Positions 2,802 through 57,033 of a stretch of 64,000 nucleotides of DNA are shown piece by piece (the first letter of the stretch is position 1; each line of letters starts with the position of its first letter). Under the pieces are notes generated by a model that did no database searches, was not told the DNA's origin, and saw nothing but the letters and a program-made list of their open reading frames with translations. Origin of the DNA: Candidatus Woykebacteria bacterium RBG_13_40_15 (GTDB taxonomy: Bacteria > Patescibacteriota > Microgenomatia > Woykebacterales > RBG-16-39-9b); the NCBI GenBank assembly GCA_001816655.1, contig MHCP01000028.1, forward strand, positions 30,309-94,308, in the 5' to 3' direction. The position numbers and the translations under genes were made by a program.

Positions 2802-2867
2802 GCTAAACACAGGATCCAAGATCGCTTCAAGTAATTCCTCAACCACGTATAACTTCTATCTTAAAGC

Positions 2868-2900
2868 GAAAGAGGCCTCGGAAATTCCAAGGCCTCTTGA
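2868..2900 (-). terminator. GC-rich hairpin downstream of the island-1 ORF
   Basis: aagaggcctcggaaattccaaggcctctt is a perfect 9-bp stem just past the stop of the 2936..3295 (-) ORF. The U-tract is weak. Confidence 0.35.
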
Positions 2901-2935
2901 TTCATCGCTACTCCTCCCCACACACCCCATCTGCT

Positions 2936-3295
2936 CTAAGAAGGAGCGTGCCTAGCTCTATGGAAACCGCAGTTAAGGCAGGTGATACCGAGATCGTCTC
3001 CCCCCTTAACCAGGGATTCCTTTTTATTGCACTTGGGACATCTCACACTGATCAGCACTACTGGGCCTTGATGCCCTTTCGGCGGCATTTCGGAAAGGAC
3101 TTGTACCACTGTTGCCTTCTGGTTGAGCCTTCTCTCCAACCTCGCCGGATCTTTTTCACCCCCGTTCACAATTATCAGAATATCACCGCATATCCGGATT
3201 CTAGCCCTTCCTGGGAGTTTGATGAGTCTCGCCGCCGCTCTCGCTTCAGGCGTCAGCAGCAACAAACCACTTAACATCCTTGTATGGGATTCCAT
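2936..3295 (-). CDS. hypothetical zinc-ribbon protein (GC-rich island 1)
   Basis: 119-aa ORF with paired CxxC (CPKCNKK...CLNCG). High-GC codon usage unlike neighbouring genes. The opposite-strand ORF 2897..3274 is low-complexity and rejected. Confidence 0.45.
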   Translation of the reverse strand: MESHTRMLSGLLLLTPEARAAARLIKLPGRARIRICGDILIIVNGGEKDPARLERRLNQKATVVQVLSEMPPKGHQGPVVLISVRCPKCNKKESLVKGGDDLGITCLNCGFHRARHAPS

Positions 3296-3757
3296 GGCGC
3301 TCTCCTCATCCTGTAAACTTGGGCAACAAAAAACTCACCCGTAAGGGCGAGTCTTGTGTCGCTTATACCACCTTACTTTCCCGATCTGTTACCAAATCGG
3401 GACTATCTAGAACCTCTCGCCTCAAGACCGCTCAAGATTTATCCTGAGCTCACCGAAGGACAAGGTCCATCACGCTGTAACGGGCGCTCCCGGGAAAATC
3501 TATTTACCCACCGAAGCTTTGGCGAAGGCGGGCTTTCAATTCCCCTGCTCCGCAGTGAATGGTTGGGCTAGTCACCTGCCGGGCTTCCACCTTACCCCAG
3601 CTCTCTGTCAGGTTTTCAACACCAACCCCTTCTGCATCATGCGCATTTATCTATTTAATTCGTTTGTTAGTATAAGGAATTTATAACGGCGTGTCAAATG
3701 GGTGGGCAAGCGGCCTCTGCACATCGGTCGAGAGGCCGCTCAGTCTTGTCCAGTTCG

Positions 3758-4231
3758 TTACGCCACTTTGTCCCGCCAAAACCACAAGCCGTTGAACGTA
3801 TCGAGATACGCCTCGAAGATCTCGACGAGCATCCCTAGAGCCTCCTCAGACAGAAGATAGGCCTCGAGAGTCTCTGCCGCTAATAGCTGGAAGGAAACAA
3901 GACCATCGGAACCGCTGATCCTTGAAATAGTCAGCAGATCCTCCGACTGCAACCTCCTTAGATTTGCGAGCAGAAAACAGGCGATTGACACCGCCCTTGT
4001 CCTCTCATCACACCTCCCATCAACTGCACTGAGAACGAGCTTTTCGGCGATTTCCTCCGAAAGTCCGTTTGGCGCAATACGCTCAACTAACTCCTGTAGC
4101 TCTGGCAGCTGAAGCGACACCGCCTGAACGATTACGGGGAAGATTCTCTCCACTATCCATCCTTTCCGCCACCGCCTCTTCCCCACCGCAGCGCGTCGTA
4201 CAATGTTAACAAAAAATCGAACATTTTTCAA
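3758..4231 (-). CDS. hypothetical protein (GC-rich island 1)
   Basis: 157-aa ORF in a ~60% GC block. No recognisable domain. Confidence 0.4.
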   Translation of the reverse strand: MKNVRFFVNIVRRAAVGKRRWRKGWIVERIFPVIVQAVSLQLPELQELVERIAPNGLSEEIAEKLVLSAVDGRCDERTRAVSIACFLLANLRRLQSEDLLTISRISGSDGLVSFQLLAAETLEAYLLSEEALGMLVEIFEAYLDTFNGLWFWRDKVA

Positions 4232-4491
4232 CCCATAGCTTTGGCCCTAGTACATTGATGTTATACGAGAGAAACGATAGAATATCGATATGCTGAAGGT
4301 TGGAATTGTTGGGGCGTAACCGGAAAAAGTGAGGCTACCAGAATACCCTTTAAGTTCAAATTAAGAATCCCAAAAACCTAGAAAAGAAACCAGAATTATT
4401 GAAAGAGACTCTCTCGGAAGAGTTGTTACTAGTCGGCATCTTTAAAATACTCTTATCTCTCTAAATTTATGAGTAGGCCTACTCTTTTTGT

Positions 4492-5034
4492 TTAACCTAG
4501 TTTTTCTTCTATCTTAGCCAACCTATCCTCTATTCGTCTTAGGACCTCCATTGTCTCAACGTGTGGAGGCGGTCCGTGGTGAGGCGGAGGTGGAGGCGGC
4601 CCGTGATGTCCAGGAGGTGGGGGCGGCGGTCCTGGTTCGTACAGTGGGTTTACTGGTACATCTGCCATTTTTGTCACCTCCTCTCGAAGAGCTTCAACTT
4701 TATTTAATAAATCTTCTTCGGTTTCGTTTTCTGTATCGGCGGTTATTTCTCTACCATCAGGAAACCCATAAATTAGTAACTCCTTGTTTTCGTTATTCTT
4801 AACTCTTAGCGGCAACCTAGTTAGCCAAGGGTACCTGTATCTTATTCGCTCTACTAGTTTATTAATGGCTGCAAGAATTAACTCATCACGGGAGAAATAC
4901 AACACGCCACCGACTTGATAAGAGTTTATTTTTCCATCCTCAGCAAGTCGATAAATTCCCTGCCTATAAAAGTACTTCTTGCCAAGGACTTCTTCTAACT
5001 CTTGGGCTGTACATAAATTAGCTACCTTTTCCAT
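4492..5034 (-). CDS. hypothetical protein with proline-rich repeat (PPPPPPGHHGPPPPPPHHGPPPH)
   Basis: 180-aa ORF. Globular N-terminal part, low-complexity Pro/His tract, C-terminal coiled-coil-like tail. Confidence 0.55.
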   Translation of the reverse strand: MEKVANLCTAQELEEVLGKKYFYRQGIYRLAEDGKINSYQVGGVLYFSRDELILAAINKLVERIRYRYPWLTRLPLRVKNNENKELLIYGFPDGREITADTENETEEDLLNKVEALREEVTKMADVPVNPLYEPGPPPPPPGHHGPPPPPPHHGPPPHVETMEVLRRIEDRLAKIEEKLG

Positions 5035-5254
5035 AGATATTGTTACAAGTCTTACTAGAATTGTAACATAATTAGGGTAAATGTCAAGTTTTGGATTTTA
5101 CACCAAAAATGCTAAAATAGCAGCGTTGCACACTGAGTCCCGTTCCATTAAGTTCTAAATGTGAATGGGCTTTAGTAGCAACGCGTGTAGGTATCTATCA
5201 TCGCCAATACTGTAGGAATGGCAGCTTATGGGCTATAAAGAGCTGCGGGGGCCG

Positions 5255-12075: not shown

Positions 12076-12124
12076 ACATTAATTCTACAAAAAATCCTTT
12101 CACTTTTCCATCCCGAACCTTAAT

Positions 12125-12640: not shown

Positions 12641-12670
12641 TTGATAACGAAAATAATTTATCCTATAATG
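12641..12670 (+). promoter_or_regulatory. sigma70-like promoter of island-2 ORF
   Basis: TTGATA at 12641-12646, TATAAT at 12665-12670, then SD aaaggagg and ATG at 12694. Confidence 0.45.
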
Positions 12671-12693
12671 CTTACTGAGAAAGGAGGCTGAAT

Positions 12694-12981
12694 ATGCCAT
12701 CAGACCCAAGGGTCTTAGGAAGGATTATCGACGAACTTGTGCCCCGGATTCCCCAACGTTCGGTCCACGTCTACGAGGAGTCTCGGATATTCGCCAGGCT
12801 CGAGCTGACGGAGGAAGACCTCTCCGACCTTCTATACGAAGTCCAGAACGAGGGTACATGTCCAGAACTCGATCTACCCAACATGTTCAAGGAATTCATC
12901 GCCGAACAACACCCCGAGACCGCCGCGTACGGAATCTTGCGGTTCGTCAAGAGGCGACAGGAGATGCTTGCGGCAGCCTAG
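12694..12981 (+). CDS. hypothetical protein (GC-rich island 2)
   Basis: 95-aa ORF with high-GC codons, its own consensus promoter and SD, followed by a hairpin (agagggtac...gtgccctct). Confidence 0.5.
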   Translation: MPSDPRVLGRIIDELVPRIPQRSVHVYEESRIFARLELTEEDLSDLLYEVQNEGTCPELDLPNMFKEFIAEQHPETAAYGILRFVKRRQEMLAAA

Positions 12982-14635: not shown

Positions 14636-15271
14636 ATGGCACCCAAAAAGGAAGAGCGAAGCAAAACGATCATACGAAGAATAATCGCTGTCGCCTGTGT
14701 TCTTTTTCTAGTCGCTAGCGGCTTCTTGGGGTTGGCGGTCAGAAATATTCTCACGCCAGCAGGAGCCGCCGCCGAAGAGACCGTCACCAAAGACGATGTT
14801 TGGCTGTCTCAAGGAGCCTCTGTACTACCGGAGTGGGGCGTCGTCTGTGGCATCAGAACACAACCGGTCTCGATGGACGATTTCCACGCAAAGACTTCCG
14901 AAACACCAATCGTGTTCTTAACCGACTTGAAGGATACTACCTGCTGCGGAAGCGATTGGGGAAGTACGCTAAAGATCGTCTATCTCGACATAAACCAGGA
15001 CCCTCCCATCCAAGCAGAGGTGGTCGTCGCCAAAGCAAAGGGCTATCAATACATAGGAAGACGCACTCTCGACAGGGGCACCAGCGGCAAAGACACCGGC
15101 ACTATCACGGTAGAGCTAGCCGCCGACTACAGCTCAGGTGGAAAGAGGGTCGAAGTGATCTTAGGCTTGGTCTTTGGAGGTATATTTGCCCTTGCCGGGA
15201 TAAGAGCTCTGGCCGTCTTGATTATCTACTTGAGGGCTACAGGACCGAAATCGGAAATCGACGTCGGCTGA
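14636..15271 (+). CDS. hypothetical membrane protein (GC-rich island 3)
   Basis: 211-aa ORF with N-terminal and C-terminal TM segments and high-GC codons. The overlapping Arg/His-rich frame 14800..15435 is rejected. Confidence 0.45.
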   Translation: MAPKKEERSKTIIRRIIAVACVLFLVASGFLGLAVRNILTPAGAAAEETVTKDDVWLSQGASVLPEWGVVCGIRTQPVSMDDFHAKTSETPIVFLTDLKDTTCCGSDWGSTLKIVYLDINQDPPIQAEVVVAKAKGYQYIGRRTLDRGTSGKDTGTITVELAADYSSGGKRVEVILGLVFGGIFALAGIRALAVLIIYLRATGPKSEIDVG

Positions 15272-15462: not shown

Positions 15463-15637
15463 CGCTATTACGGCAGCTGGCGTCTTAAAACTTGCAAAAA
15501 TACAAAGAGGAGACGGAAACTGAACGATTAGAGAATTTCCGAGGATGTCCCGAAGTATTTTTGCAAAGTTTTACAGCCAGCGAAGTTTAGCGGAAGTTTT
15601 GGTACCACCTTTCCAAAAAGGTGGTAAAAGTAGTTTA
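15463..15637 (+). ncRNA. candidate structured sRNA / repeat, copy 1 of a 2-copy family
   Basis: ~88% identical to 41758-41926. Long stem gctggcgtcttaaaacttgcaaaaata / tatttttgcaaagttttacagccagc. 3' hairpin ccacctttccaaaaaggtgg followed by an A/T-rich tail. Confidence 0.45.
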
Positions 15638-24061: not shown

Positions 24062-24092
24062 TTGACAGCTAAAATAATAGCCAGTCTATGAA
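24062..24092 (+). promoter_or_regulatory. putative promoter of ParB-like gene
   Basis: TTGACA at 24062-24067, TATGAA at 24087-24092 (19-nt spacer), SD gaaggagg, ATG at 24108. Confidence 0.3.
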
Positions 24093-24107
24093 GAAGGAGG
24101 GCCGATC

Positions 24108-25409
24108 ATGGCAAAGAAAAAAGCGGCTGGTCAGCCCCCTAACGAGGCTGACTTTACCTTTCCTGAACAAGATACGAAGCTAGACTTCCGTGTAATCAAT
24201 ACCGTTTCGCAACCACGCAAGGAATTCCCCGATATACGAGAGCTAGCTGATAGCATCGCAAGACACGGCTTGCTCTACCCCCTAGTCATCCTAAAACTCG
24301 ATGAGGAGCAATGCAGAAAGTACTTGGGGAACCTAAACGCAATCTGGGAGAGTGAGCACTGTATCGAAGAGCTAACCGTGGTACGCGAGGGGAAAAAGCG
24401 CATTTTCTATCTCCTCCTTGCCGGAGAGCGCCGGCTACGTGCTTATCGCCACTTGTGGAAGAAAGGCTGCAGCGATTGCCTGGAAGTCTACGGCAAGGAG
24501 AAACGCGGCACGTGCTTCAGACGGCACATTTCGGTAGAGGGAATGATACCCACCAGAATCTGCGAAAACATGCCGATTCACGAGGCACTAATCCTACAGA
24601 TGATCGAGAACACGAGCCGTGTCCAGCTATCCCTCAATGATGAAGCACGCGGCCTGGCCTATCTCTACAGAACCTTTCGGATGGCCGATCCCGCTCTTAC
24701 CGTGAAGGACTTCGCTCGTCACTTTGGACGAGGAGAAACCACTGTTAGAAGTGCTCTTCGCTTCTGCAAGTTACCACCCGAGATCCAAGGTGCTGTCGAC
24801 AACGGTAATGATTACGGCAAGCTTGAGTTTGGAATAGCCGTCCAACTTGCCAGACTTCAGGAACACGGTTGCGACGAGGAAGAGCTCCTACACCGTATGA
24901 AAACAGCGCAGCTCGACAGAACCACGGTCCCCGATTTCCGTCAGTCCGTGACGAGCTACCTGCAATTCCTGAGAGGGCAGGGGTGTCTTTTCGATAGCGA
25001 TGTAAGTAGGCGACTTGCAGCACTTGGACAGCACAAACAAATAGTCGAGCGACACATTCTTGGAGCGCTTTACACCCAGCTCCAATACATGTTGACAGTG
25101 ATCCGTCTGTTTGAGAACGGTGATCTTGGAATGGAAGACTCTCCGTTCTCTGTGAGAAGCCCAGTCAAAGTATACCTTCGAGTAGTTCAAACTCTCGCGC
25201 AAGCCCTTCCTCACATGCGCCAGTTCCTGCCGGAGAAAGACCTAGCGATGATTGGGGCAACTTTGGCAGAAGGATTAGAGGTCACACGCATTCTCGAAGC
25301 AGCCTTAGCGGAAGCGAAAGAGACCGGAACGGAAGCACCAGGACCGGAAGAAAAGGAGGTAGGGATCCCGGTTGGTGCTCCTGGGGGCAACTTGCATCAG
25401 CAGGATTAG
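24108..25409 (+). CDS. ParB/Srx-like nuclease-domain protein with Cys-rich insertion (GC-rich island 4)
   Basis: LLAGERRLRAYR is the ParB GERRxRA motif. A downstream Cys-rich segment (GCSDC...GTCFRRH...RIC) sits before the MIENTSR helix. 433 aa with high-GC codons. Confidence 0.6.
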   Translation: MAKKKAAGQPPNEADFTFPEQDTKLDFRVINTVSQPRKEFPDIRELADSIARHGLLYPLVILKLDEEQCRKYLGNLNAIWESEHCIEELTVVREGKKRIFYLLLAGERRLRAYRHLWKKGCSDCLEVYGKEKRGTCFRRHISVEGMIPTRICENMPIHEALILQMIENTSRVQLSLNDEARGLAYLYRTFRMADPALTVKDFARHFGRGETTVRSALRFCKLPPEIQGAVDNGNDYGKLEFGIAVQLARLQEHGCDEEELLHRMKTAQLDRTTVPDFRQSVTSYLQFLRGQGCLFDSDVSRRLAALGQHKQIVERHILGALYTQLQYMLTVIRLFENGDLGMEDSPFSVRSPVKVYLRVVQTLAQALPHMRQFLPEKDLAMIGATLAEGLEVTRILEAALAEAKETGTEAPGPEEKEVGIPVGAPGGNLHQQD

Positions 25410-25495
25410 TCCCCTATTGTACGCGGAGGGTAGCAAGCATGGATGCTTCTACCCTCTCTCCGTTTTAAAAAAGAAAACCTGATATAATCCCTTTT

Positions 25496-25916: not shown

Positions 25917-26171
25917 TCAGACCAATCCTTCCGCCTCAGCATACTCCTGCAGCACTCGACACGCTTCTCGAGTCAGCCCCCGCACCTCTAGAGAGCCGGA
26001 TGCGAGTTCTAGATCTCCAACCGTGATTATACCCGCTGCATTCGCCGCTTGGAGCGTCTTTTCAGCTATTTCCGAAGCTAGCCTGCTACCGTCGTTACTC
26101 TGTCTAACCACGATCTTTTCCGTAACCAATAGAAGGTCAGCAGCTCTAATTGTTCTTCCGCCTCCTGGCAT
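25917..26171 (-). CDS. hypothetical protein (GC-rich island 5)
   Basis: 84-aa ORF with high-GC codons. No recognisable domain. Confidence 0.4.
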   Translation of the reverse strand: MPGGGRTIRAADLLLVTEKIVVRQSNDGSRLASEIAEKTLQAANAAGIITVGDLELASGSLEVRGLTREACRVLQEYAEAEGLV

Positions 26172-26184
26172 AGGATCCCTCCTT

Positions 26185-26400
26185 TCACATGATCTCTATC
26201 TCGTCTCCCTTTTCAATCACTCTTTGGGAGAAAGCAGCTACGAGATTGCCGTTGACCTTAACAAACAAGCCGCAAGGGGTCTGCTCCACCTTCCGAAGAT
26301 ACTGGCAGACCCTTTCCACTGTCAAGCCAACGAACTCTCGCTCCACCTCTTCCCCATTACACAGAGTGACCTTTATGGTGTCCATACCCAAGGAAACCAT
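26185..26400 (-). CDS. ThiS/MoaD-like beta-grasp protein lacking C-terminal GG (GC-rich island 5)
   Basis: 71 aa. IKVTLCNGEEVE...VKVNGNLV...GDEIEIM follows the ThiS pattern (VNGexv...gDeveI) but ends EIM rather than GG. Confidence 0.45.
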   Translation of the reverse strand: MVSLGMDTIKVTLCNGEEVEREFVGLTVERVCQYLRKVEQTPCGLFVKVNGNLVAAFSQRVIEKGDEIEIM

Positions 26401-26677
26401 TTGAATTCTCCCCTCTTACTGCTGCAGTTTGCTATCTTCCGCTTGAAATATAAGACAGAGTTGGTGGAAATTATATCCCGCAGGAAACAATACGCAACAG
26501 GTAATGTTGCGGATTATACTGATTGGAATGGAAAAATGCAATAATACATTAGAATTTGCTTTTGAAGAAAATCGAAAAAGAAAAAGAGGAATCCTGCCGG
26601 ACTGCGACAAAACGCATAATCTCCGGCAGGGCATCTCCTCTCCAATCTTGCCTAGCGAAGTCCTGGGGACCGGTTTC

Positions 26678-27025
26678 CTACGCCGGTTCAGGGGTGCTGA
26701 TTGTGCTTGAAGTCCCCTTCCGTACAACCACACGCCTCACAAACCCCCTTCCCACCTCGATCACTAACCGAACCTCCCTTCTTCCCACCTTATCAAAGGA
26801 CTTGGCGACAGCCTTCACTGGTCCGGATAGGTAAGTCGATTCAACAACATCAGTACCATCCGGACACGTGGACCTGATGGTAGTAACAGGTCCGGTTCTT
26901 AGAAGACGGGTTTGCAACCCTGGTGGGCCTTCGATAACGATCTCACCACTAAGAACTCTTGACCCGCCCAAATACACCCTCACCTCTTCTAGCGGGTCGA
27001 CATCGCCTGATCCTAACACTGCCAT
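26678..27025 (-). CDS. hypothetical protein (GC-rich island 5)
   Basis: 115-aa ORF with high-GC codons. Alternative frames overlap. Confidence 0.35.
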   Translation of the reverse strand: MAVLGSGDVDPLEEVRVYLGGSRVLSGEIVIEGPPGLQTRLLRTGPVTTIRSTCPDGTDVVESTYLSGPVKAVAKSFDKVGRREVRLVIEVGRGFVRRVVVRKGTSSTISTPEPA

Positions 27026-27161
27026 CTTGAACCCCCTTGAGTTTCAACTAAGCTAAACGACTGCTTGGGAGATCGCGTGTAAAGTTCCCTTCTTTCCTGC
27101 TGACGAATTATATACATTGCAAAGAAAAAAGTAAATGCTATAAGACAGCTACCTGGAAAAA

Positions 27162-27523: not shown

Positions 27524-27641
27524 AAAGTGTTGGCGGCGGGCCTTTTGCGTCACGTACCACAATTTGGCCCGCCTAAGTAGTGCTACGCTGAAAATCGTAG
27601 TACCCTCGATAAAACGCGCGAAGGTCCTGTTCCACCTCCGG

Positions 27642-27860
27642 TCAGCATTGATCAACTATCTCCCTACCGACCCTCCTCTCGACTTCCGCTCGGGCACGAC
27701 GAAGAAGTTGAGACACTGGAGTAGCGGCGCTGAGAAAACAAGCCTGGAAGTAGCTGTAATCCTCCACCATCAACCTCCAGCCAGATTCCTCCTTAAGGAA
27801 AACCTCGTTTGGAGCAACGAGGTGGAAGACTGTTTGGCCTAACTTAAAGATATTTCTCAC
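27642..27860 (-). CDS. hypothetical protein (GC-rich island 6)
   Basis: 72-aa ORF in a short high-GC block. The opposite-strand ORF 27513..27842 is an alternative. Confidence 0.3.
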   Translation of the reverse strand: MRNIFKLGQTVFHLVAPNEVFLKEESGWRLMVEDYSYFQACFLSAATPVSQLLRRARAEVERRVGREIVDQC

Positions 27861-28001
27861 GCCTCGCTCCTCCTTTCTTGAAGGAAATCATATCACTTAT
27901 AAAAATCAAAATCAACCGACTATGGGACAAATGGGTTAGGAAGTTTGTTGCTAGCACCTCGAAGCCCTGAGTCAAACCGAAGGACAAAGTGGTGTCAAAA
28001 A

Positions 28002-30208: not shown

Positions 30209-30336
30209 GGAAGTGATTTTATCACTGATAGAGGTGTTGGGCAAATTAAAGTATGGTGGGGGGGGGAGAAGCGCTTCTCCATTCACTCCTACACCCCCAC
30301 CAGCGAGACGAAGGGCCTCTCATCCTTCGTCCGCCT

Positions 30337-30609: not shown

Positions 30610-30711
30610 CTCTCACCTCCTAGTAAGATCTGAAAATAATAATACTGCAATATGAAAGCTAAAAACAAGTCTGCTTGATTGGTAAATTTGCGTAGAATGG
30701 AAATAGTCCAA

Positions 30712-41029: not shown

Positions 41030-41700
41030 CCTCTTTGTGGATTTAGAATAGCACTAGTGTGGAAACTTGACAATCCCTGAAAAAGAAGATTTTTAAGTGG
41101 CTCTTGGGGTACAAAAAACTCTCCCAAACCATCCTTCGAAAATAAGAAGGATGACTTAAGAGAGGACCCGAGACGTCGCATTGTCAACATGAACGCCTCG
41201 GGCTTGATCCCTCTCCGTTGGGTCTGCATCATTGGTCTAGGGGCCGCTATAAAAAAGCTGCGTGCCGACGTATCAACGCGCAATCGTCCTTAGAAAGGAC
41301 ATTTGCCCCCGACTCAAGTTCCCAATCAGCCACCACTACCGACTATACCTCCATGCGTCAGCAGCGGCTAAGGATATAGACTGGGAACACTAGCAGGGCG
41401 GGTCTCTTCCGATCTTCTTCTCCAAGATCGCCTCCTTCTTACGTTGCAGAAAAGGACACCCTCCGGTAAACATCAGTCGCTGTCGGTCCTACCAGGGATC
41501 TTAACTTTCCGGATTATCGTTTCTTCCCTTGACTCTCGGACGAGCCTTTCTCCAAGCGCGGGGCGCCCATTAGGAGTGGAAGTGCCCTCTCCGGACTACT
41601 TACGGACCGTTCAGCTCCCTCAAAACTATCTCATCAAACTCCGCTTTGTGACACAGTCTTGAGGGATACGAAGGGTATAAAATAATCTTAAACCATTATA
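41030..41700. other. GC-rich (~57%) non-coding block, possible structured RNA
   Basis: No convincing ORF; the 87-aa frame 41020..41283 is low-complexity. Composition contrasts sharply with the flanking AT-rich genes. The ~170-nt repeat copy 2 follows immediately. Confidence 0.25.
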
Positions 41701-41757: not shown

Positions 41758-41926
41758 CGCTATTATGTAGCTGGCGTCTTAAAACTTGCAAAAATGTGAG
41801 AGAAACGGAAACTGACCGAAGAGAATTTCCGAGGCTCCCGAAACATTTTTGTTTAGTTTTACAGCCAGCGAAGTTTAGCGGAAGTTTTGGTACCACCTTT
41901 CCAAAAAGGTGGTAATAAAGATTTTA
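41758..41926 (+). ncRNA. candidate structured sRNA / repeat, copy 2
   Basis: Paralog of 15463-15637 with compensatory changes in the long stem (aaaaatgt/acattttt vs aaaaata/tattttt). Identical 3' hairpin ggtaccacctttccaaaaaggtggtaa. Confidence 0.45.
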
Positions 41927-42052: not shown

Positions 42053-42370
42053 ATGCTAAAAAAGGAGCGACTGGCCAGGGCTGAAAAGGAGGCAGCCATG
42101 GTTACTATGTGCAAGGTGCCGACTGGCACCGAAGACACACTTCTTGCGGGACTGGGAGAGCTGGGAAAGGAGGTCGAGATAGCGGTCGCTACAGGAAGGC
42201 TAAACACAGAGAAGGGTATCACTGACGCCCTACGGGATGGCACAGTGCCAATAGCCGTAAGGCACCGAGTAGACGGCGTTCTTCCTCCGGAAAAGGCAGA
42301 GGCAATCAGAGCCTGGAGGAAGGAAGTCGAAGCAAGACTTCTTGGAGGAATTGGGATTGAGCGACCATAA
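42053..42370 (+). CDS. hypothetical protein (GC-rich island 8)
   Basis: 105-aa ORF with high-GC codons. The antisense ORF 42043..42375 is an alternative. Confidence 0.35.
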   Translation: MLKKERLARAEKEAAMVTMCKVPTGTEDTLLAGLGELGKEVEIAVATGRLNTEKGITDALRDGTVPIAVRHRVDGVLPPEKAEAIRAWRKEVEARLLGGIGIERP

Positions 42371-42450
42371 CACACCTGGCCAGTTCAAGTAGCGGCCTTG
42401 CTTCGCATGGAATGCGCAAACGGAGCAGGGCCGCTCAACTATTTACAAGA

Positions 42451-44421: not shown

Positions 44422-44541
44422 AAAAACAGCTTATTGTAGTTAATCAGAAAACAAATGAGAAAGTCAAATGGGAAATGGCAAGGGCAGGACACCATCCAAG
44501 CTACTCCGTAGATGGTGTCCTTAAACCCTCTCCATTTGCTC

Positions 44542-44883
44542 CTACTGCTTCGAGGCCTCCTTCTCCCGGGTCACTTCCTCATCGAGGTATCGGGCAATCT
44601 CCTGAAGAGCCGCCTCTCTTTCCGTACCACGGAGACGTGCAACGGAGAATTTCAGTTGGCCACTCGAGGAAGCGAGTCGTTCGAGTTTACCCAAACAGGG
44701 TTTTAGCTGCAGAATACCCTCCGCGAGGATGCCAAGCGCTGCACCACTTCTCTTCTCGGCCGGAATAGTTCTGGGAAACTGTATCTCCAGAACCCAGGAA
44801 AGCTTCAGTACTCGAAGTACAATCCCCCGCTTACTAGTCAAGAGCTCGTGGTTGCCTATTCTCCTAATGGAATATGGCCGCAT
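44542..44883 (-). CDS. hypothetical protein (GC-rich island 9)
   Basis: Start placed at MRPYSIRRIG, preceded by a perfect SD GGAGGGAGTTCC-ATG. A GC-rich hairpin (ggacaccatc...gatggtgtcc) lies downstream. Confidence 0.45.
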   Translation of the reverse strand: MRPYSIRRIGNHELLTSKRGIVLRVLKLSWVLEIQFPRTIPAEKRSGAALGILAEGILQLKPCLGKLERLASSSGQLKFSVARLRGTEREAALQEIARYLDEEVTREKEASKQ

Positions 44884-44979
44884 GGAACTCCCTCCTATTT
44901 CTTGGGCAACTGCCGAATAGATCAATTATCTTCCTTAAAGCAGACATTATTTTAACATAGTAGAAAAAGCAAAATGTTA

Positions 44980-46236
44980 TTAGCTAAGGTCAGGAGGACT
45001 TTCAGGAGGGTTTTGAGGAGGATTTAAAGTATTCGAAATTGCTTCTTTCAACTTCCCTTTCCTTTTCTCCCATATAACTAAAATAGCGATTAACGCTAGG
45101 ATTGCTACAACTACAAAGGCTGGTAAAGCTACTCTCAATATCCCTTGTAAACTTACTTCGCCAGCAAAAGCTGTAACCTGATACTCCTGCCGGCTCTTCG
45201 AAGCTTTTACGTCGATTTCTGCACCAAAAGTCTCTTCTCCAGATGTTAAATTTACCCCATGCTTACCTAAAGAGATGTCTTCAAATTTTACTATTCCTTC
45301 TTTGTCCGTAGTCGCTTCCTCCAAACCAGGATAAATCTTCACTTTTATTCCGGAGAGAGGTTTACCGGCTGGATCGGAGACTTTTATTTGGATAGAATAA
45401 CCCTTTGTTTTGAATGATAAAATTTTGCTAGTCGCGGCGTTGCCAGCCTCATCTGCACTTATAACTTTATAATAGTAAGTGGTCCCTGGAACAAGAAAAT
45501 TGCCGGAAAGATTGATAACTTGGCTAGTTCTTAATCCTCCGTTTGAGGCAGAAAGGCCAAGATTCTGGGAAATACCATAATTAACAGTTGAATTTGCTGG
45601 TTCATTGGTCTTCCAAGAAATTGTCGCCGAATTTAAACCAGGCTTGCTAACTTTTATATTTGAAATTACCGGGGCAGTCTTATCAACTGGTTTGGGGGTA
45701 GATGTAGATGTTACCGGGGCAGTCTTATCAACTGGTTTGGGGGTAGATGTAGTAGATGTAAAGCTGTAAGTTCCACCGCTTGATCCTGTCATTATGTTTA
45801 TTCCGTCATTAACTATTGCTGAGCCTCCTGAAAAAGAGACCGTGGCCAAGCCCGAGGAAACCTTGGCTCTGAAAGTCAGTGTTGCCAGTAGCTTGTCTCC
45901 AACTACCGGGCTTAAGGTTCCTCGACTGATTGTTATTGAACCTCCCCCACCACTACTTGGTGCTTCTATCTCGAATGCACTACCTGCTGAACTAATGCCA
46001 AGAAAATCCAATGAAGCTGTGGGATAAGTAAGGTTTGCTGTTACAGCGTTCGCGGGAGTTCCTCCCGTGTTAACTCGCACAGAAACAGAAAATGTTGCTC
46101 CTTGGACGACTGTAGCTGAGCCTGGTGACAAATAGAGACTGCCTCCAGCAAAAACTTTTGAAAGAGGGGCCAATGGGAAAATTAAAATTATAGAAACTAA
46201 ACCTGCTATTAACAACTTGGGCAGCTGTTTTATCAT
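44980..46236 (-). CDS. cohesin-like domain surface protein with fibronectin-III-like region and C-terminal TM anchor (anchoring scaffoldin-like)
   Basis: After the N-terminal signal/TM, the segment LYLSPGSATVVQGATFSVSVRV...LTYPTASLDF...GDKLLATLTFRAKVSSG...VSFSGGSAIVNDG fits the cohesin beta-sandwich pattern. C-terminal TM AFVVVAILALIAILVIW. Confidence 0.55.
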   Translation of the reverse strand: MIKQLPKLLIAGLVSIILIFPLAPLSKVFAGGSLYLSPGSATVVQGATFSVSVRVNTGGTPANAVTANLTYPTASLDFLGISSAGSAFEIEAPSSGGGGSITISRGTLSPVVGDKLLATLTFRAKVSSGLATVSFSGGSAIVNDGINIMTGSSGGTYSFTSTTSTPKPVDKTAPVTSTSTPKPVDKTAPVISNIKVSKPGLNSATISWKTNEPANSTVNYGISQNLGLSASNGGLRTSQVINLSGNFLVPGTTYYYKVISADEAGNAATSKILSFKTKGYSIQIKVSDPAGKPLSGIKVKIYPGLEEATTDKEGIVKFEDISLGKHGVNLTSGEETFGAEIDVKASKSRQEYQVTAFAGEVSLQGILRVALPAFVVVAILALIAILVIWEKRKGKLKEAISNTLNPPQNPPESPPDLS

Positions 46237-46237
46237 T

Positions 46238-48055: not shown

Positions 48056-48096
48056 TTCTTTATTTAAGTATTGCCCCTTGTCGTTTACTTGTCAAC

Positions 48097-50661: not shown

Positions 50662-50725
50662 AATTAAATTGTAGGATTCAATTTCTGACCTGTCAACTTG
50701 GACGGGGAATAGGAACCAGAGCCCT

Positions 50726-55279: not shown

Positions 55280-55439
55280 TTGAGAACCATTATATCAAAA
55301 AGAAAAACGACCCGTTTCCGAGTCGCTTCTCTTCCTAAGAAAACCTCTAATGAGATTTGCTTGGGAAGAACCCCGGTGTCGTGACAAGTCACTTCTTGAC
55401 TCGTACGTCCTGGGGCACTCCTTGCTATTCGGTTCTCGA

Positions 55440-56042
55440 TCAGCAGCCCGGGCTCCCTGGGTTCCAGTGGATGACAACCGTCCCGTCTTCCAACTTCTGG
55501 AAGGTGTAAAGCGGGGCAAGATCGTCTTCCACCAGTGCCACCAGATCCGCAGGCAAATCGTACCGTCCGAGCTTCACACTGGTGGGTCCGCAGGAAGTCA
55601 CACCCAGCGAACTGATGGCGACGTGGGTGAGTACCTCAGCAGTTGTCACGTTGCCCTTCGCCAATTCCTGTTGAGCTTGGGCGATCAAGGAGTCGAAATA
55701 GCCCCGAGCAGTGAAGTCTCTGCCTCCTCCCTCCACACCACTCTTCTCGCTGTACCAGGATGAATGAGTATACAGGTCGGCCTCGACGATATACATGCGT
55801 CCCTGTAAGTCACCGACACTCCCGCTCAGGGTGTAAGGGTACCCGACCTCAGTCCCTCCGACTCTGGCTTGCAGATCTTCGATTTGCTTCTGCTGCTCGT
55901 CGATACGGTCCTGCTGAGCAACGGCCGTTGCTTGTATGTCACCGATCTGACTCCGCAGGGCCTCCTCGTTGTCTGAGCCTCCTCCACAGGCCACTAGGAA
56001 TATGGCGGTCAGAACTGTGGCTATAACCAGAAAACGCCTCAC
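55440..56042 (-). CDS. hypothetical lipoprotein (GC-rich island 10a)
   Basis: Lipobox MRRFLVIATVLTAIFLVAC. 200 aa with high-GC codons. Confidence 0.5.
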   Translation of the reverse strand: MRRFLVIATVLTAIFLVACGGGSDNEEALRSQIGDIQATAVAQQDRIDEQQKQIEDLQARVGGTEVGYPYTLSGSVGDLQGRMYIVEADLYTHSSWYSEKSGVEGGGRDFTARGYFDSLIAQAQQELAKGNVTTAEVLTHVAISSLGVTSCGPTSVKLGRYDLPADLVALVEDDLAPLYTFQKLEDGTVVIHWNPGSPGC

Positions 56043-56197
56043 GGCGTCACTCCTTTCCCCGCCATTTGGCGGACCAACTAGAACAACTAACTTCCATCAT
56101 GACTGCCAACTTAGCCGTCAAGTTACAAATTGGTAACCAAGTTGGCAGCCACAATGTAAGGCGAAAACAACCGAATAAGTTTTCAAGGAACAGAAGT

Positions 56198-56226
56198 ATT
56201 ATACCAAACTATAGGTCAAAAGTCAA
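56198..56226 (-). promoter_or_regulatory. consensus sigma70 promoter for lipoprotein 55440..56042
   Basis: Minus strand reads TTGACT-tttgacctatagtttgg-TATAAT. Nearly identical to the promoter at 57034-57063. Confidence 0.5.
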
Positions 56227-56289
56227 TCTACGGACTACTCATAATTTATTGCGGGGAAAGTTTTTGGGAAAATTTGTTTGGTCCGAAAA

Positions 56290-56325
56290 AGAAAAACGAG
56301 CCTTTCGACTCGTTTTTCCTCCTAA
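56290..56325 (-). terminator. bidirectional hairpin terminator
   Basis: aaaaacgag-cctttcga-ctcgttttt is a 9-bp stem flanked by A/T runs. Downstream of lipoprotein 56451..56906. Confidence 0.5.
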
Positions 56326-56450
56326 ATAAACCATGGCTCGCTATAAGCTCACTATGATTTACTTGGGTATGCGAGGAACGGACAAGCCAAAGCTTGTTGC
56401 TCCCGTTCCTCGCTCATTTTCCCTTTCCGTTCTAGCCGAGGCCAGGCCCT

Positions 56451-56906
56451 CTATTTCGGGCAAAGATCGGGGCTTACTTTACGAAAGGATGCCCGTTCTA
56501 GGTCTGTGAGTACTTTGCCATTTCTCAGCACAATGACAAAACAGGCCGCCTGACTAACCATCAGGTCGCCCGAGTCACCGGGCCCCCAAAAGGTTGTCCC
56601 ATATGCCACATCCTCAATCTCGTCGTAGACGGGGGTATACTCAACAGCGTACTCTGGCAGCCAGAAAACGTTACCTGTACGCTCGTTTCTGACCTCAGTA
56701 GAGTAGATCGGTCGAGTGCCACTGTATGCACCGGATGGGGTGGAACCCAGGACTGTGACACGGTCACCGTTCTTGAACTCCGACACGAGTACCCCTTTGT
56801 AGGGGTTTTCCACGGTCCCGTACGTAGATGGAGCGCCGCCTTTACAAGAAACGGCAGCACCCACGAGAATCGTGAGAACAACGATCAAGAACGTAGCTCG
56901 TCTCAT
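56451..56906 (-). CDS. hypothetical lipoprotein (GC-rich island 10b)
   Basis: Lipobox-like MRRATFLIVVLTILVGAAVSC. 151 aa with high-GC codons. Confidence 0.5.
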   Translation of the reverse strand: MRRATFLIVVLTILVGAAVSCKGGAPSTYGTVENPYKGVLVSEFKNGDRVTVLGSTPSGAYSGTRPIYSTEVRNERTGNVFWLPEYAVEYTPVYDEIEDVAYGTTFWGPGDSGDLMVSQAACFVIVLRNGKVLTDLERASFRKVSPDLCPK

Positions 56907-57033
56907 CTCAACACCTCAAATGCCGTCAGAACGCGCTCTTCACGCTCCACTATTTTGGTGGTCTGACTCGCATCAAATAACCCTCAAAAGAGGACTATTT
57001 GACATTAGTCAAATCTTCTGATTTAACAGGAAG

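What the first reader, a model, noticed from the sequence alone, without database searches (positions are those of the whole stretch)
2860..56940. Compositional mosaic: ~10 short GC-rich ORF islands, each with its own AT-rich consensus promoter and hairpin terminator, interspersed among AT-rich core operons
**Where the islands are**
- At least ten blocks of ~0.3-1.6 kb have strikingly higher GC (roughly 55-62% against a ~38-42% background), with codon usage to match.
- The blocks are 2.9-4.25 kb, 12.69-12.98, 14.6-15.3, 24.1-25.4, 25.9-27.0, 27.6-27.9, 30.3-30.6, 41.0-41.7 plus 42.05-42.37, 44.5-44.9, and 55.4-56.9.
- They sit between syntenic housekeeping genes.

**What they contain**
- Only small ORFs with no housekeeping role: a Zn-ribbon protein, a ParB-like nuclease-domain protein, a ThiS-like protein, lipoproteins and small membrane proteins.
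- The GC shift is essentially confined to the ORFs.
- Each ORF is fronted by a textbook AT-rich -35/-10 promoter and a strong SD. Examples are TTGATA-18-TATAAT at 12641-12670 and TTGACT-17-TATAAT for both lipoproteins.
- Each is closed by a GC-rich hairpin.

**Why it is odd**
- This density, 10 islands in 64 kb, is far beyond ordinary HGT background.

**Possible explanations**
- Repeated acquisition of genes from a high-GC partner (host, co-resident or phage) that have been domesticated under native promoters.
- Scattered remnants of one large mobile element.
- An assembly or chimeric artefact.
- Deliberately recoded or engineered inserts.

The 170-nt repeat (15463-15637, 41758-41926) sits immediately next to two of the islands and could mark insertion boundaries.
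Basis: partly seen in the sequence, partly recalled or inferred. Interest (0 to 1): 0.75.

Follow-up and report, generated by a model that had tools for sequence, protein, structure and literature searches.

The report
GC-rich gene islets in CPR genome
A small groundwater bacterium (Candidatus Woykebacteria) carries about a dozen short GC-rich, self-contained gene or RNA units wedged between its AT-rich core genes; they are real and look like pieces of a lineage-specific flexible gene pool plus a few structured RNAs, which is an unusual flavour of ordinary horizontal gene flow and not an artefact or engineering.

Summary
The mosaic is real. Twelve blocks (9.6 kb, 15% of the window) have 50-57% GC against 40.5% for core genes. 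Island ORF GC3 is 0.57 versus 0.36 (p = 2e-8).

The window comes from Candidatus Woykebacteria RBG_13_40_15, a CPR bacterium. Other assemblies cross the island borders, so it is not a chimera.

Most islands are single-gene units with their own promoter, SD and terminator. They encode CPR-restricted orphan proteins. Two are RNA: a T-box-like leader (3340-3650) and a ~560-nt structured RNA (41100-41680) also found in a relative.

- **Close relatives (CysS 73-81%):** they lack islands 2 and 3 and carry other GC-rich insertions elsewhere.
- **A more distant relative (L171):** it has the lipoprotein cluster at the same site. The cluster is again GC-rich but only 31-36% identical, while the flanking genes are 69-84% identical.
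- **Dinucleotide signature:** island pools from six genomes resemble each other more than their hosts or unrelated genomes of similar GC.

Best reading (about 0.55): moron-like cassettes from a GC-richer, Woykebacteria-associated gene pool, plus structured RNAs. A gene-specific compositional equilibrium is not excluded. One broken mobile element and engineering are rejected. The 165-nt repeat is a structured intergenic repeat, not a boundary mark.

The parts
3758..4231 (-). Island 1a: 157-aa ORF (TTG start; the true start may be an internal GTG). GC 0.52, GC1/2/3 = 0.59/0.39/0.58. A hairpin follows at about 3705-3745.
   Evidence: No Pfam, NCBIfam, PHROG or PADLOC hit. Fold z = -3.5, so an RNA role is not excluded.
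3669..3697 (-). Promoter-like site TTGACA-17-TATACT in front of the T-box-like leader.
   Evidence: 11 of 12 matches; sequence.
3340..3650 (-). T-box-like leader RNA. It has a K-turn, AGAGA/GGUG distal motifs, the CCGUUA F-box, the T-box sequence GGUGGUA and a terminator at 3337-3352. The probable specifier is UUC (Phe).
   Evidence: RF00230, 64.7 bits, E = 7e-14, full model 1-219; below the gathering score of 93. Terminator. Fold z = -4.5.
2936..3295 (-). Island 1b: 119-aa ORF with a C-terminal CPKC...CLNC zinc ribbon, directly downstream of the T-box terminator. A hairpin follows at about 2870-2900.
   Evidence: Present in NCBI as OGY23155.1, hypothetical. Only weak zinc-ribbon hits.
12641..12981 (+). 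Island 2: promoter TTGATA-17-TATAAT (12641-12669), SD, and a 95-aa acidic ORF (12694-12981; GC 0.56, GC3 0.68). A hairpin follows at about 13003-13033.
   Evidence: Singleton protein. The whole 12076-13045 insert, including the trpR-like gene, is absent in L173, L174 and L177.
14636..15271 (+). Island 3: 211-aa membrane protein with N- and C-terminal hydrophobic helices. GC 0.53, GC3 0.58. A -10 TATAAT lies at 14557-14562.
   Evidence: Absent in L173 and L174. L177 has an unrelated GC-rich 197-aa ORF at the same place.
24063..25470 (+). Island 4: promoter-like TTGACA...TATGAA, SD, a ParB-like 433-aa ORF (24108-25409) and an intrinsic terminator at about 25425-25470. The next gene (zincin, GC 0.38) has its own -10.
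   Evidence: Homologs P0002-P0005 (27-38% identity) sit in four other CPR-like contigs, in different contexts.
25917..26560 (-). Island 5a: promoter at about 26530-26560, a ~100-nt leader, then a two-gene unit of 71 aa (26185-26400) and 84 aa (25917-26171).
   Evidence: Singleton proteins. The ThiS hit is not significant.
26591..27135 (-). Island 5b: promoter TTTACT-17-TATAAT (27107-27135), a 115-aa ORF (26678-27025) and a terminator (26591-26613).
27535..27915 (-). Island 6: promoter TTGATT-17-TATGAT (27887-27915), SD, a 72-aa ORF (27642-27860) and a structured 3' region with a hairpin at about 27535-27580.
   Evidence: Fold z of 27490-27641 = -2.7.
30207..30665 (-). Island 7: promoter-like TTGTTT-18-TATTAT, AGGAGG, a 90-aa membrane ORF (30337-30609) and GC-rich hairpins at 30207-30336.
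41100..41680 (-). Island 8a: ORF-free structured RNA of about 560 nt with its own -10 and a terminal hairpin plus U-tract. It lies immediately upstream of the dcd genes.
   Evidence: Fold z = -5.3 and -4.1/-5.9 in halves. Homologous RNA at the same position in L171 17870-18430 (alignment z = 7.7; fold z = -5.9). No Rfam match at E <= 10.
42053..42440 (+). Island 8b: 105-aa ORF (42053-42370; GC 0.55) with a hairpin at about 42390-42440.
   Evidence: Fold z = -2.6.
44485..44990 (-). Island 9: promoter-like site, SD, a 113-aa ORF (ATG at 44883, ends 44542) and a terminator hairpin at about 44485-44520. It lies between a surface-protein gene and topA.
55440..56226 (-). Island 10a: promoter TTGACTTTTGACCTATAGTTTGGTATAAT (56198-56226), a ~150-nt leader with a 22-bp hairpin, and a 200-aa lipoprotein (55440-56042; lipobox LVAC; GC 0.57, GC3 0.65).
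   Evidence: Small family P0100-P0109. Members are in L171 (same position) and L175 (different position), both GC-rich. No fold match.
56451..57062 (-). Island 10b: promoter TTGACTTTTATCCCATAGTTTAGTATAAT (57034-57062), a structured ~125-nt leader, and a 151-aa lipoprotein (56451-56906; lipobox AVSC).
   Evidence: 36% identical counterpart next to the lipoprotein genes in L171 9016-9378.
15463..15637 (.). Copy 1 of the ~165-nt structured repeat, downstream of yqeY.
   Evidence: 88% identity to copy 2. Long hairpin, z = -4.9 to -7.5.
41758..41926 (.). Copy 2 of the ~165-nt structured repeat, between the 560-nt RNA and the 105-aa ORF.
   Evidence: Compensatory AC/GT to GT/AC change in the stem between the two copies.

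Best explanation
The window is a stretch of a Candidatus Woykebacteria (CPR/Patescibacteria) chromosome. Its conserved core operons are interrupted at intergenic sites by small, self-contained accessory units.

**What the units are.**
- Most are single-gene or two-gene cassettes of the kind called 'morons' in phages: own promoter, strong SD, one short ORF, own terminator.
- They encode orphan proteins found only in Woykebacteria-like CPR genomes: two lipoprotein families, a ParB-like DNA-binding protein, and small membrane, zinc-ribbon and acidic proteins.
- They come from a gene pool whose base composition (about 53-60% GC) and dinucleotide signature differ from the 40% GC core. Islands of related genomes share that signature.
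- A minority are GC-rich because they are structured RNA: a T-box-like leader, a ~560-nt conserved non-coding RNA, and structured 5' leaders.

**How they got there.** The cassettes are gained, lost and replaced at recurrent intergenic hot spots such as cysS flanks, upstream of dprA, topA-dcd and ychF-rpsF.

**Shown versus inferred.**
- Shown: the composition shift, the unit anatomy, presence/absence among relatives, the CPR-restricted homologs, and the shared signature.
- Inferred: the direction of events (gain versus loss), the vehicle, and why the pool is GC-rich. Possible vehicles are an unsampled CPR phage or plasmid, or uptake through the competence/pilus/DprA machinery encoded here.
For: **Identity and integrity.**
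- Genome identity.
- Other assemblies across the island borders.

**Composition.**
- Two composition classes with almost no overlap, including amino-acid usage.
- GC1 and GC3 of island genes both point to a source genome of about 53% GC under the Muto-Osawa/Lawrence-Ochman relations (my calculation). That shows no strong decay toward the host composition.
- Most island ORFs fold like ordinary coding sequence (z about 0). The T-box, the 560-nt RNA, the repeats and the leaders fold strongly (z -4 to -9).

**Unit anatomy.**

**Comparison with relatives.**
- Empty sites for islands 2 and 3 in L173, L174 and L177.
- A different GC-rich insertion (polysaccharide deacetylase plus beta-lactamase-like, GC 0.50-0.52) between ybaB and recR in L173 and L174 is absent here.
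- ychF-rpsF is a variable hot spot. L174 has a serine recombinase element there.
- Lipoprotein-family genes are GC 0.56-0.62 in hosts of 0.405, 0.44 and 0.46 GC, at one shared and one different position.
- The same-site lipoproteins are 31-36% identical, against 69-84% for the flanking core proteins.
- ParB-like homologs sit in four different neighbourhoods. GC3 is 0.13-0.20 above the host in three of four.

**Shared signature.**
- Island pools of six genomes: mean delta* 77 to each other (about sampling noise), 118 to backgrounds, and a median of 171 to unrelated loci of 49-62% GC.

**Literature.**
- Patescibacteria carry many islands and individually transferred genes, mostly exchanged within the phylum, covering up to 13% of a genome: PMC12455944.
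Against: - No vehicle or donor was found. There is no integrase or transposase in the window, and no phage, plasmid or IMG/VR relative of any island protein.
- The lipoprotein cluster is at the same site in L171. If it was inherited vertically, its GC3 should long since have drifted to the host value. Keeping it GC-rich then requires replacement by related foreign copies or a gene-specific equilibrium.
- The insert at 12076-13045 combines a GC 0.38 trpR-like gene with a divergent GC 0.56 ORF. Similarly, AT-rich ASCH and zincin genes alternate with GC-rich ORFs at 25.4-27.9 kb. Composition therefore differs between neighbouring accessory genes, which fits gene-by-gene arrival or gene-specific constraints and argues against block transfer.
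- Accessory genes in bacteria are usually AT-richer than the core (my background knowledge). The opposite sign here is unexplained.
- Only the flanks of cysS and dprA-topA could be compared with relatives. Seven of the islands have no comparison at all.
Confidence: 0.55

Rival explanations
1. **Gene-specific compositional equilibrium.** The island genes are long-resident, fast-evolving Woykebacteria genes. Their GC is kept about 10-15 points above the genome by a local process. Candidates are GC-biased gene conversion at frequently recombining loci, or selection on the transcripts for stability, structure or escape from an AT-targeting RNase such as the HicA toxin encoded at 31281-31556.
For: - The lipoprotein cluster is at the same position in L171 and is GC-rich in both genomes, although synonymous sites between the two genomes must be saturated.
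- ParB-like GC roughly tracks host GC with a positive offset: 0.52/0.405, 0.50/0.43, 0.55/0.49, 0.40/0.35.
- AT-rich and GC-rich genes are mixed within what look like single inserted modules.
- Islands share a dinucleotide signature that is closer to the Woykebacteria cores than to unrelated genomes.
Against: - Islands 2 and 3 are simply absent in the closest relatives.
- The offset (GC3 +0.2 to +0.4) is far larger than the recombination-associated GC3 differences reported in bacteria (my background knowledge, not tested here).
- Most island ORFs show no excess RNA structure.
- Lipoprotein GC is about constant (0.56-0.62) across hosts from 0.405 to 0.46 GC. That fits a common source better than a host-plus-offset model.
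- In L170 the ParB-like gene has the host's GC3.
Confidence: 0.22
2. **Transfer from a high-GC non-CPR partner.** Genes were captured directly from a host cell or co-resident bacterium of about 55-65% GC, for example through DNA uptake, and then placed under local expression signals.
For: - The composition is what a source genome of about 53-60% GC would give.
- The window encodes DprA and type IV pilus/pseudopilin genes, which could serve DNA uptake.
- The GC-rich deacetylase and beta-lactamase-like genes in L173 and L174 belong to widespread families and could have such an origin.
Against: - An exhaustive HMMER search of 1.84 billion representative proteins found only 10 relatives of the lipoprotein. 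The three that were located are all in CPR genomes.
- The ParB-like protein has four close relatives, all in CPR-like contexts.
- The ten other island proteins looked up form clusters of one or two members at 90% identity. None of the small island proteins has a significant family match.
- The island signature is closer to Woykebacteria cores than to unrelated loci of 49-62% GC.
Confidence: 0.1
3. **Mostly RNA.** The GC-rich islands are chiefly structured RNA genes or elements, as in AT-rich genomes where RNAs stand out by GC. The annotated small ORFs would be spurious.
For: - T-box-like leader.
- 560-nt conserved RNA.
- Structured leaders and repeats.
- ORF157 and ORF105 fold more stably than shuffled versions (z -3.5 and -2.6).
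Against: - Eleven of the 14 island ORFs, ParB-like and both lipoproteins included, fold no better than shuffled sequence (z -0.6 to +1.2); the 151-aa lipoprotein and the 71+84-aa pair are marginal at about -1.7.
- Most island ORFs show coding-type GC1 > GC2 with raised GC3, are preceded by strong SD sites, and several carry signal peptides with lipoboxes or have protein homologs.
- No Rfam family reaches its threshold and there are no tRNAs.
Confidence: 0.05
4. **Artefact, engineering or one shattered element.** The mosaic would be an assembly or binning chimera, a designed or recoded construct, or the scattered remains of one large mobile element.
For: None beyond the compositional contrast itself.
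Against: - Other public assemblies reproduce island 2 with both flanks (2,252 nt, 4 mismatches, all within about 85 nt of that contig's ends) and the lipoprotein region (100% identity).
- One related environmental genome has GC-rich genes at the same site.
- Core gene order between the islands matches relatives, which excludes a fragmented single element.
- No mobility genes are present.
Confidence: 0.03

Closest known systems
Horizontally acquired genomic islets and individually transferred genes in Patescibacteria (PMC12455944)
   Same: - Short foreign-looking segments between core genes of streamlined CPR genomes.
- Exchange mainly within the phylum.
- A similar share of the genome: up to 13% reported, 15% of this window.
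   Different: - The units here are mostly single genes of 0.3-1.5 kb, each with its own signals.
- They are uniformly GC-richer than the host.
- They share a dinucleotide signature across six genomes.
- One cluster recurs at the same site in a relative that is only 69-84% identical in core proteins.
Phage 'morons': independent transcription units spread among phage genomes by horizontal transfer (PMC3594210)
   Same: - Promoter, one ORF and terminator inserted between two otherwise adjacent genes.
- Composition differs from the neighbours.
- Products are often lipoproteins or small membrane proteins.
- Present in some relatives and absent in others.
   Different: - The flanks are chromosomal housekeeping genes, not prophage genes.
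- No phage genes or PHROG matches apart from ParB-like.
- No phage or viral relatives were found.
GC-rich islands that mark structural RNA genes in AT-rich genomes (Klein, Misulovin and Eddy 2002; from my own knowledge, not checked here)
   Same: The T-box-like leader, the 560-nt RNA and the structured leaders stand out by GC and by folding energy.
   Different: Only a minority of the islands are RNA. Most are ordinary coding sequence with raised GC3. The host, at 40% GC, is only moderately AT-rich.
Integron gene cassettes
   Same: Many short, mostly orphan, single-ORF units that vary between relatives.
   Different: - The units are scattered, not in a tandem array.
- Each has its own promoter.
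- No integron integrase is present.
- No attC sites were identified.
T-box riboswitch (Rfam RF00230)
   Same: A full-length match to the model, with Stem I motifs, F-box, T-box sequence and terminator.
   Different: - The score is below Rfam's gathering threshold.
- There is an extra insertion of about 90 nt.
- It sits in a CPR genome.
- The downstream gene is a 119-aa zinc-ribbon orphan, not an aminoacyl-tRNA synthetase, transporter or biosynthetic gene.

Membership tests
Phage moron | Autonomous transcription unit: own promoter and own terminator around one ORF (or a few) | tested here: met
   Consensus-like -35/-10 sites, SD and hairpins were read for each unit. These are pattern matches only; no transcript data.
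Phage moron | Inserted between genes of a phage or prophage genome | tested here: not met
   The flanks are cysS, pilins, topA, dprA, dcd and similar core genes. No phage structural or lysis genes. PHROG hits are limited to ParB-like.
Phage moron | Composition differs from flanking genes, and the unit is absent at the same junction in relatives | tested here: met
   Composition. Empty junctions for islands 2 and 3 in L173, L174 and L177. The lipoprotein island is instead occupied in L171. The other islands could not be compared.
Integron gene cassette | Adjacent intI tyrosine recombinase with attI, and cassettes in a tandem array | tested here: not met
   No integrase domain in any window protein scanned. 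The units are dispersed over 54 kb among core genes.
Integron gene cassette | attC recombination site at the 3' end; usually promoterless | tested here: inconclusive
   No attC model was run. The 3' hairpins look like terminators, and each unit has its own promoter, which is atypical for cassettes.
Classical genomic island | More than about 10 kb, next to a tRNA gene, with integrase and flanking direct repeats | tested here: not met
   Units are 0.3-1.5 kb. No tRNA or tmRNA in the 64 kb. No integrase. No flanking direct repeats were reported.
T-box leader (RF00230) | Covariance-model score at or above the Rfam gathering threshold (93 bits) | tested here: not met
   64.7 bits, E = 7e-14, model positions 1-219 of 219.
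T-box leader (RF00230) | Stem I with K-turn, specifier loop and distal AGAGA/GGUG motifs; F-box; T-box sequence with UGGN; terminator/antiterminator | tested here: met
   All are visible in the cmscan alignment. Terminator at 3337-3352. The UUC specifier reading is my inference from that alignment.
T-box leader (RF00230) | Controls an aminoacyl-tRNA synthetase, amino-acid transport or biosynthesis gene | tested here: not met
   The downstream ORF is a 119-aa zinc-ribbon protein with no family assignment.
ParB/Spo0J partition protein | ParB N-terminal domain plus ParB HTH domain | tested here: met
   PF02195 at 28.8 bits (cutoff 26.3). PF17762 at 21.8 bits, just under its cutoff of 22.6. PHROG ParB-like E = 3.6e-14.
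ParB/Spo0J partition protein | Operon partner ParA and nearby parS | tested here: not met
   The neighbours are a PHP-domain gene and a zincin gene. No parA is adjacent. parS was not searched.
Bacterial lipoprotein | Signal peptide ending in a lipobox with invariant Cys | tested here: met
   MRRFLVIATVLTAIFLVAC|GGG and MRRATFLIVVLTILVGAAVSC|KGG, read from the translations. The Cys aligns in 5 of the 9 aligned family members. No signal-peptide predictor was run.
ThiS/MoaD sulfur carrier | Family HMM match and C-terminal Gly-Gly | tested here: not met
   TIGR01683 E = 0.095, 13.1 bits against a cutoff of 37.45. No Pfam hit. The protein ends ...DEIEIM.

The most novel reading that the evidence does not exclude
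Woykebacteria and related CPR bacteria may maintain a second, compositionally coherent genome compartment. This would be a pool of GC-rich, self-expressed mini-cassettes and novel structured RNAs that keeps its own base composition and dinucleotide signature across species.

Two mechanisms could keep it distinct. It could cycle through an as yet unsampled CPR-specific mobile element. Or a gene-specific force could hold these genes away from the genome's AT-biased equilibrium.

The compartment would include:
- a ~560-nt RNA class with no Rfam match (E <= 10);
- a T-box that controls a zinc-ribbon protein instead of an amino-acid-related gene.
Probability: 0.25. Interest if true: 0.7.

Novelty: new variant of a known kind. 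Interest (0 to 1): 0.45.

Why it matters
CPR bacteria have tiny genomes and are thought to depend on other cells, so what they gain and lose says much about how they adapt. This window gives four leads.

- **Size and shape of the flexible genome.** It is large (15% of the window) and is organised as many tiny autonomous units, not a few big islands.
- **A recognisable signature.** The units share a GC-rich signature across genomes. It could be used to find the unknown vehicle (phage, plasmid or donor lineage) and to flag accessory genes in other CPR genomes assembled from metagenomes.
- **Direction of the bias.** Acquired or orphan genes are usually AT-richer than the core (my background knowledge). 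The opposite sign here raises a testable question about mutation bias, gene conversion or tolerance of foreign DNA in CPR.
- **Two RNA elements worth study on their own.** One is a ~560-nt structured RNA next to the dcd (dCTP deaminase/dUTPase-family) genes. The other is a T-box-like leader in front of a zinc-ribbon orphan.

If the ordinary reading holds, this is a well-documented example of known horizontal gene flow, not a new mechanism.

Tried and rejected
**Known RNAs.**
- Rfam at gathering thresholds and ARAGORN on the whole window found nothing, so the islands are not rRNA, tRNA, RNase P or tmRNA.
- Rfam at E <= 10 on 41.0-42.05 kb and on the matching L171 stretch gave only noise hits.
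- Rfam at gathering thresholds on seven related loci found only one tmRNA and one tRNA.

**Homolog searches for island proteins.**
It returned nothing, not even the proteins' own database entries, which do exist. The result is uninformative, not negative.
- tblastn of the same concatenation against phage and plasmid collections: no match.
- IMG/VR scan with the ParB-like alignment: no relative.
- The lipoprotein alignment was too divergent for that tool.
- PHROGs, PADLOC, NCBIfam and Pfam on island proteins gave nothing significant except ParB-like.

**Structure.**
- An AlphaFold model of the lipoprotein has a confident C-terminal domain (mean pLDDT 71 overall) but no PDB fold match at E < 0.1.
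- The AFDB library was unavailable.

**Finding relatives.**
- Exact look-ups of the ParB-like and TopA proteins found no contig.
- The genome-collection scan with TopA reached at most 59% identity. The metagenome scan with CysS reached at most 56%. Neither gave close relatives.
- Close relatives came only through the CysS protein search.
The dprA-topA region of the closest relatives, L173 and L174, could not be fetched.

**Ideas dropped.**
- A promoter motif shared by all islands: the extended motif occurs only at the two lipoprotein promoters and once in L171.
- The 165-nt repeat as an insertion scar: see the interpretation check.
- Island GC versus host GC across genomes as a test of 'offset versus common source': the islands were defined relative to the local background, so the argument would be circular.

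Full report

Yes. The window averages 42.7% GC.
- 2806-4272, 12633-13115, 14568-15411, 24079-25515
- 25783-27114, 27487-27888, 30183-30650, 41090-41689
- 42008-42489, 44429-44927, 55280-56177, 56295-57011

Together they cover 9,629 nt, or 15% of the window.

Gene by gene, 14 island ORFs have GC 0.532 +/- 0.020 and GC3 0.567. The 59 background genes have GC 0.405 +/- 0.032 and GC3 0.358 (Mann-Whitney p = 2e-8). The two classes do not overlap in total GC. Amino-acid usage shifts as expected for long residence at higher GC: Arg 8.1% versus 3.9%, Lys 4.4% versus 7.8%.

The dinucleotide signature of the pooled islands differs from the background by delta* = 99.5. Size-matched background samples give 28 +/- 9.6.

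Some corrections are needed. Other >=50% GC stretches inside the large surface-protein and pilin genes have background-range GC3 (0.38-0.42) with high GC2, so they are not islands.

**2. What organism is this, and is it an artefact?**

The ParB-like protein is identical to a protein of Candidatus Woykebacteria bacterium RBG_13_40_15, on a 141-kb contig. Ten other island ORFs are in public databases as hypothetical proteins of that genome, or on ENA contigs, in clusters of one or two members.

Core gene order matches a WWE3 genome and several Woykebacteria-like contigs.

Other public assemblies contain island 2 with both flanks (L169: 2,252 nt, 4 mismatches, all within about 85 nt of that contig's ends) and the lipoprotein region (L167 and L168: 100% identity). 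A chimeric assembly or an engineered construct is therefore not credible.

**3. Anatomy of the islands.**

The GC rise is confined to the transcribed part.

Promoter examples:
- TTGATA-17-TATAAT at 12641-12669
- TTGACA-17-TATACT at 3669-3697
- Two near-identical lipoprotein promoters, TTGACTTTT..CC.ATAGTTT.GTATAAT, at 57034-57062 and 56198-56226

The products are:
- a zinc-ribbon protein
- a ParB-like protein (PF02195 and a borderline HTH_ParB)
- two lipoproteins with lipoboxes
- small membrane and acidic proteins

Apart from ParB-like, none has a significant Pfam, NCBIfam, PHROG or PADLOC match. 'ThiS-like' is not supported.

Most island ORFs fold no better than shuffled sequence, like core genes. 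The exceptions are ORF157 (z = -3.5) and ORF105 (z = -2.6), with the 151-aa lipoprotein and the 71+84-aa pair marginal at about -1.7. Most also show coding-type codon-position GC. On this evidence they are mostly real coding genes.

**4. Not all islands are ORFs.**

- **A T-box-like leader in island 1.** 3340-3650 (-) matches the T-box model over its full length (64.7 bits, E = 7e-14, below the gathering score of 93). It has the K-turn, distal-loop, F-box and T-box motifs and a terminator. It precedes the zinc-ribbon ORF, which is an unusual target. My reading of the alignment puts the specifier at UUC (Phe).
- **A ~560-nt RNA at 41100-41680 (-).** This block has no credible ORF. It folds with z = -5.3 and ends in a hairpin plus U-tract. 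A homologous, equally structured RNA lies at the same place (upstream of dcd) in L171 (alignment z = 7.7 against shuffles; fold z = -5.9). Neither copy matches any Rfam family.
- **Structured lipoprotein leaders.** The lipoprotein 5' leaders contain long hairpins.
- **The ~165-nt repeat.** The two copies are 88% identical (15463-15627 and 41758-41915 align). Each folds into a long hairpin with a compensatory change between the copies.

**5. Comparison with relatives.**

*Close relatives.* Three contigs were found through CysS: L173 at 81%, L174 at 78% and L177 at 73% identity. They keep the order ybeY-pth-mfd-dnaX-ybaB-recR-yqeY-cysS-pilins-ychF...rpsF-ssb-rpsR.
- In all three, cysS abuts the pilin gene. 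The 970-nt insert carrying the trpR-like gene and island 2 is absent.
- Island 3 is absent in L173 and L174. L177 has an unrelated GC-rich ORF at that spot.
- L173 and L174 carry a 2.3-kb GC-rich pair (polysaccharide deacetylase and beta-lactamase-like, GC 0.50-0.52) between ybaB and recR. The window lacks it.
- The ychF-rpsF gap holds island 1 here, three paralogous membrane proteins in L173, and a serine-recombinase element in L174.

*A more distant relative.* L171 has core proteins 69-84% identical to the window.
- It keeps the order surface proteins, lipoproteins, dprA, topA and so on to dcd.
- Upstream of dprA it has four small GC-rich ORFs (GC 0.57-0.62, GC3 0.65-0.86, against a background of about 0.46/0.44).
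- These include members of both lipoprotein families, but at only 31-36% identity.

*Same families elsewhere.*
- In L175 a lipoprotein-family gene is again a GC-rich single-gene island, in an unrelated neighbourhood.
- ParB-like homologs sit in four different neighbourhoods. They exceed host GC3 in three of four genomes.

**6. A shared island signature.**

Island pools from six genomes differ from each other by a mean delta* of 77, which is about sampling noise for 1-3 kb pools. They differ from the six backgrounds by 118 on average. The backgrounds differ from each other by 59.

Thirty-five unrelated loci of 49-62% GC lie at a median of 171 (minimum 114) from the window's islands. The resemblance among islands is therefore not a by-product of GC content alone.

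**7. Interpretation.**

The data fit a flexible genome made of small autonomous cassettes. The cassettes are gained, lost or replaced at recurrent intergenic sites, and they come from a CPR-associated pool with its own, GC-richer composition. A few structured RNAs add to the GC-rich signal. This agrees with published evidence that Patescibacteria exchange many genes, mostly within the phylum (PMC12455944). The unit design matches the phage 'moron' concept (PMC3594210), although here the setting is chromosomal.

The main open point is the same-site but highly divergent lipoprotein cluster. One possibility is that related foreign copies replaced each other at a hot spot. The other is that these genes are held away from the genome's compositional equilibrium by a gene-specific force. 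Fine-scale alternation of AT-rich and GC-rich accessory genes (12.1-13.0 kb, 25.4-27.9 kb) also argues against block transfer from one donor.

No vehicle was found. The window has no integrase or transposase, and no island protein has a phage, plasmid or viral relative.

Confidence in each explanation:

| Explanation | Confidence |
|---|---|
| Cassette pool plus structured RNAs | about 0.55 |
| Gene-specific compositional equilibrium | about 0.2 |
| Transfer from a high-GC non-CPR partner | about 0.1 |
| Mostly RNA | 0.05 |
| Artefact, engineering or one shattered element | 0.03 |

**8. How exceptional is it?**

By one island metric, the window ranks 6th of 98 mostly CPR loci. Every Woykebacteria-like locus I inspected has several GC-rich islets. 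The density is therefore typical of this lineage, not a peculiarity of this contig.

Three aspects are less ordinary:
- the GC-rich direction of the bias;
- the signature shared across genomes;
- the two RNA elements.

Overall this is a new variant of a known phenomenon, of moderate interest.

Noticed in passing
window 3340-3650 (-), with the ORF at 2936-3295 (-): A T-box-like riboswitch (64.7 bits, all hallmark motifs, probable Phe specifier) sits in a CPR genome in front of a 119-aa zinc-ribbon orphan, not an aminoacyl-tRNA synthetase gene. A full-text search found no paper mentioning both 'T-box riboswitch' and 'Patescibacteria'.
   Followed up: partly
window 41100-41680 (-); L171 17870-18430 (+): A structured RNA of about 560 nt with its own promoter and terminator lies upstream of the dcd (dCTP deaminase/dUTPase-family) genes. 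It keeps its position and its 5'/3' motifs in a relative and has no Rfam match. It is a candidate new large non-coding RNA.
   Followed up: partly
window 15463-15637 and 41758-41926; L174 about 9860-9900: Two copies of a ~165-nt element (88% identity) fold into a long hairpin plus a second hairpin, with a compensatory AC/GT to GT/AC change between copies. Part of its motif (TTTTTGCAAGTTTTAA) also lies downstream of yqeY in L174. It looks like a lineage-specific structured intergenic repeat or small RNA.
   Followed up: partly
window 1541-1700, 2786-2807, 36364-36420, 39828-39875, 58686-58775: A recurring intergenic motif, TAGCCCACTTTAGTGGTCGCAG ... GAGTACCTAAAT, contains the palindrome CCACTTTAGTGG. 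It occurs upstream of rpsR, rpsF, tsf, a dcd-family gene and a surface-protein gene. It may be a shared operator or leader element.
   Followed up: no
window 12139-12167 and 12571-12599: The trpR-like gene (12125-12577, GC 0.38) is bracketed by two copies of a ~26-nt palindrome, ACTTCAAT..ATTGAAGT. One copy lies between it and the divergent GC-rich 95-aa gene. This suggests a regulator-target pair of mixed composition inside one insert that relatives lack.
   Followed up: partly
window 44980-54148 (-): Four consecutive large surface proteins (418, 605, 854 and 1140 aa) carry Ig-like, fn3 and dockerin domains. The last three share similar N-termini and a 158-nt repeat at their 3' ends (70-87% identity). 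They are inserted between dprA and topA relative to L171 and WWE3.
   Followed up: no
L174 17590-21398; L175 1-1345; window 4492-5034: The ychF-rpsF gap is a variable hot spot. L174 has a serine recombinase plus an HTH_17 gene and small ORFs there. The window has an HTH_17 gene next to island 1. Elsewhere in its genome, L175 has two GC-rich HTH_17 genes beside a tyrosine integrase. Island 1 could be leftover cargo of an integrative element.
   Followed up: partly
L173 6163-8507; L174 6321-8662: The closest relatives carry a GC-rich pair (GC 0.50-0.52), polysaccharide deacetylase plus beta-lactamase-like, between ybaB and recR. The window lacks it.
   Followed up: yes
window 55776 and 57170; L167 1-293: Two separately assembled contigs both end at window position 55776, inside the 200-aa lipoprotein gene. 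One of them (L167) diverges completely from the window beyond 57170. This may reflect strain-level structural variation, or a scaffolding join, at the lipoprotein island.
   Followed up: partly
window 27485-27526, 28863-28904, 29148-29189: A 42-nt repeat (64-90% identity) carries TTGACA-17-TACAAT/TAAAAT promoters in front of three small AT-rich accessory genes: the ASCH gene and the 287-aa and 80-aa genes. This shows promoter duplication within the accessory region.
   Followed up: no
window 45666-45752: An exact 42-nt unit occurs twice, 45 nt start to start, inside the 418-aa surface-protein gene.
   Followed up: no
window 37747-39219; L171 20427-20642: The window encodes a double-length ThyX (490 aa, two Thy1 stretches) near the three dcd-family genes. 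L171 has thyA at the corresponding end of the cluster. This looks like a thymidylate synthase type swap between relatives.
   Followed up: no
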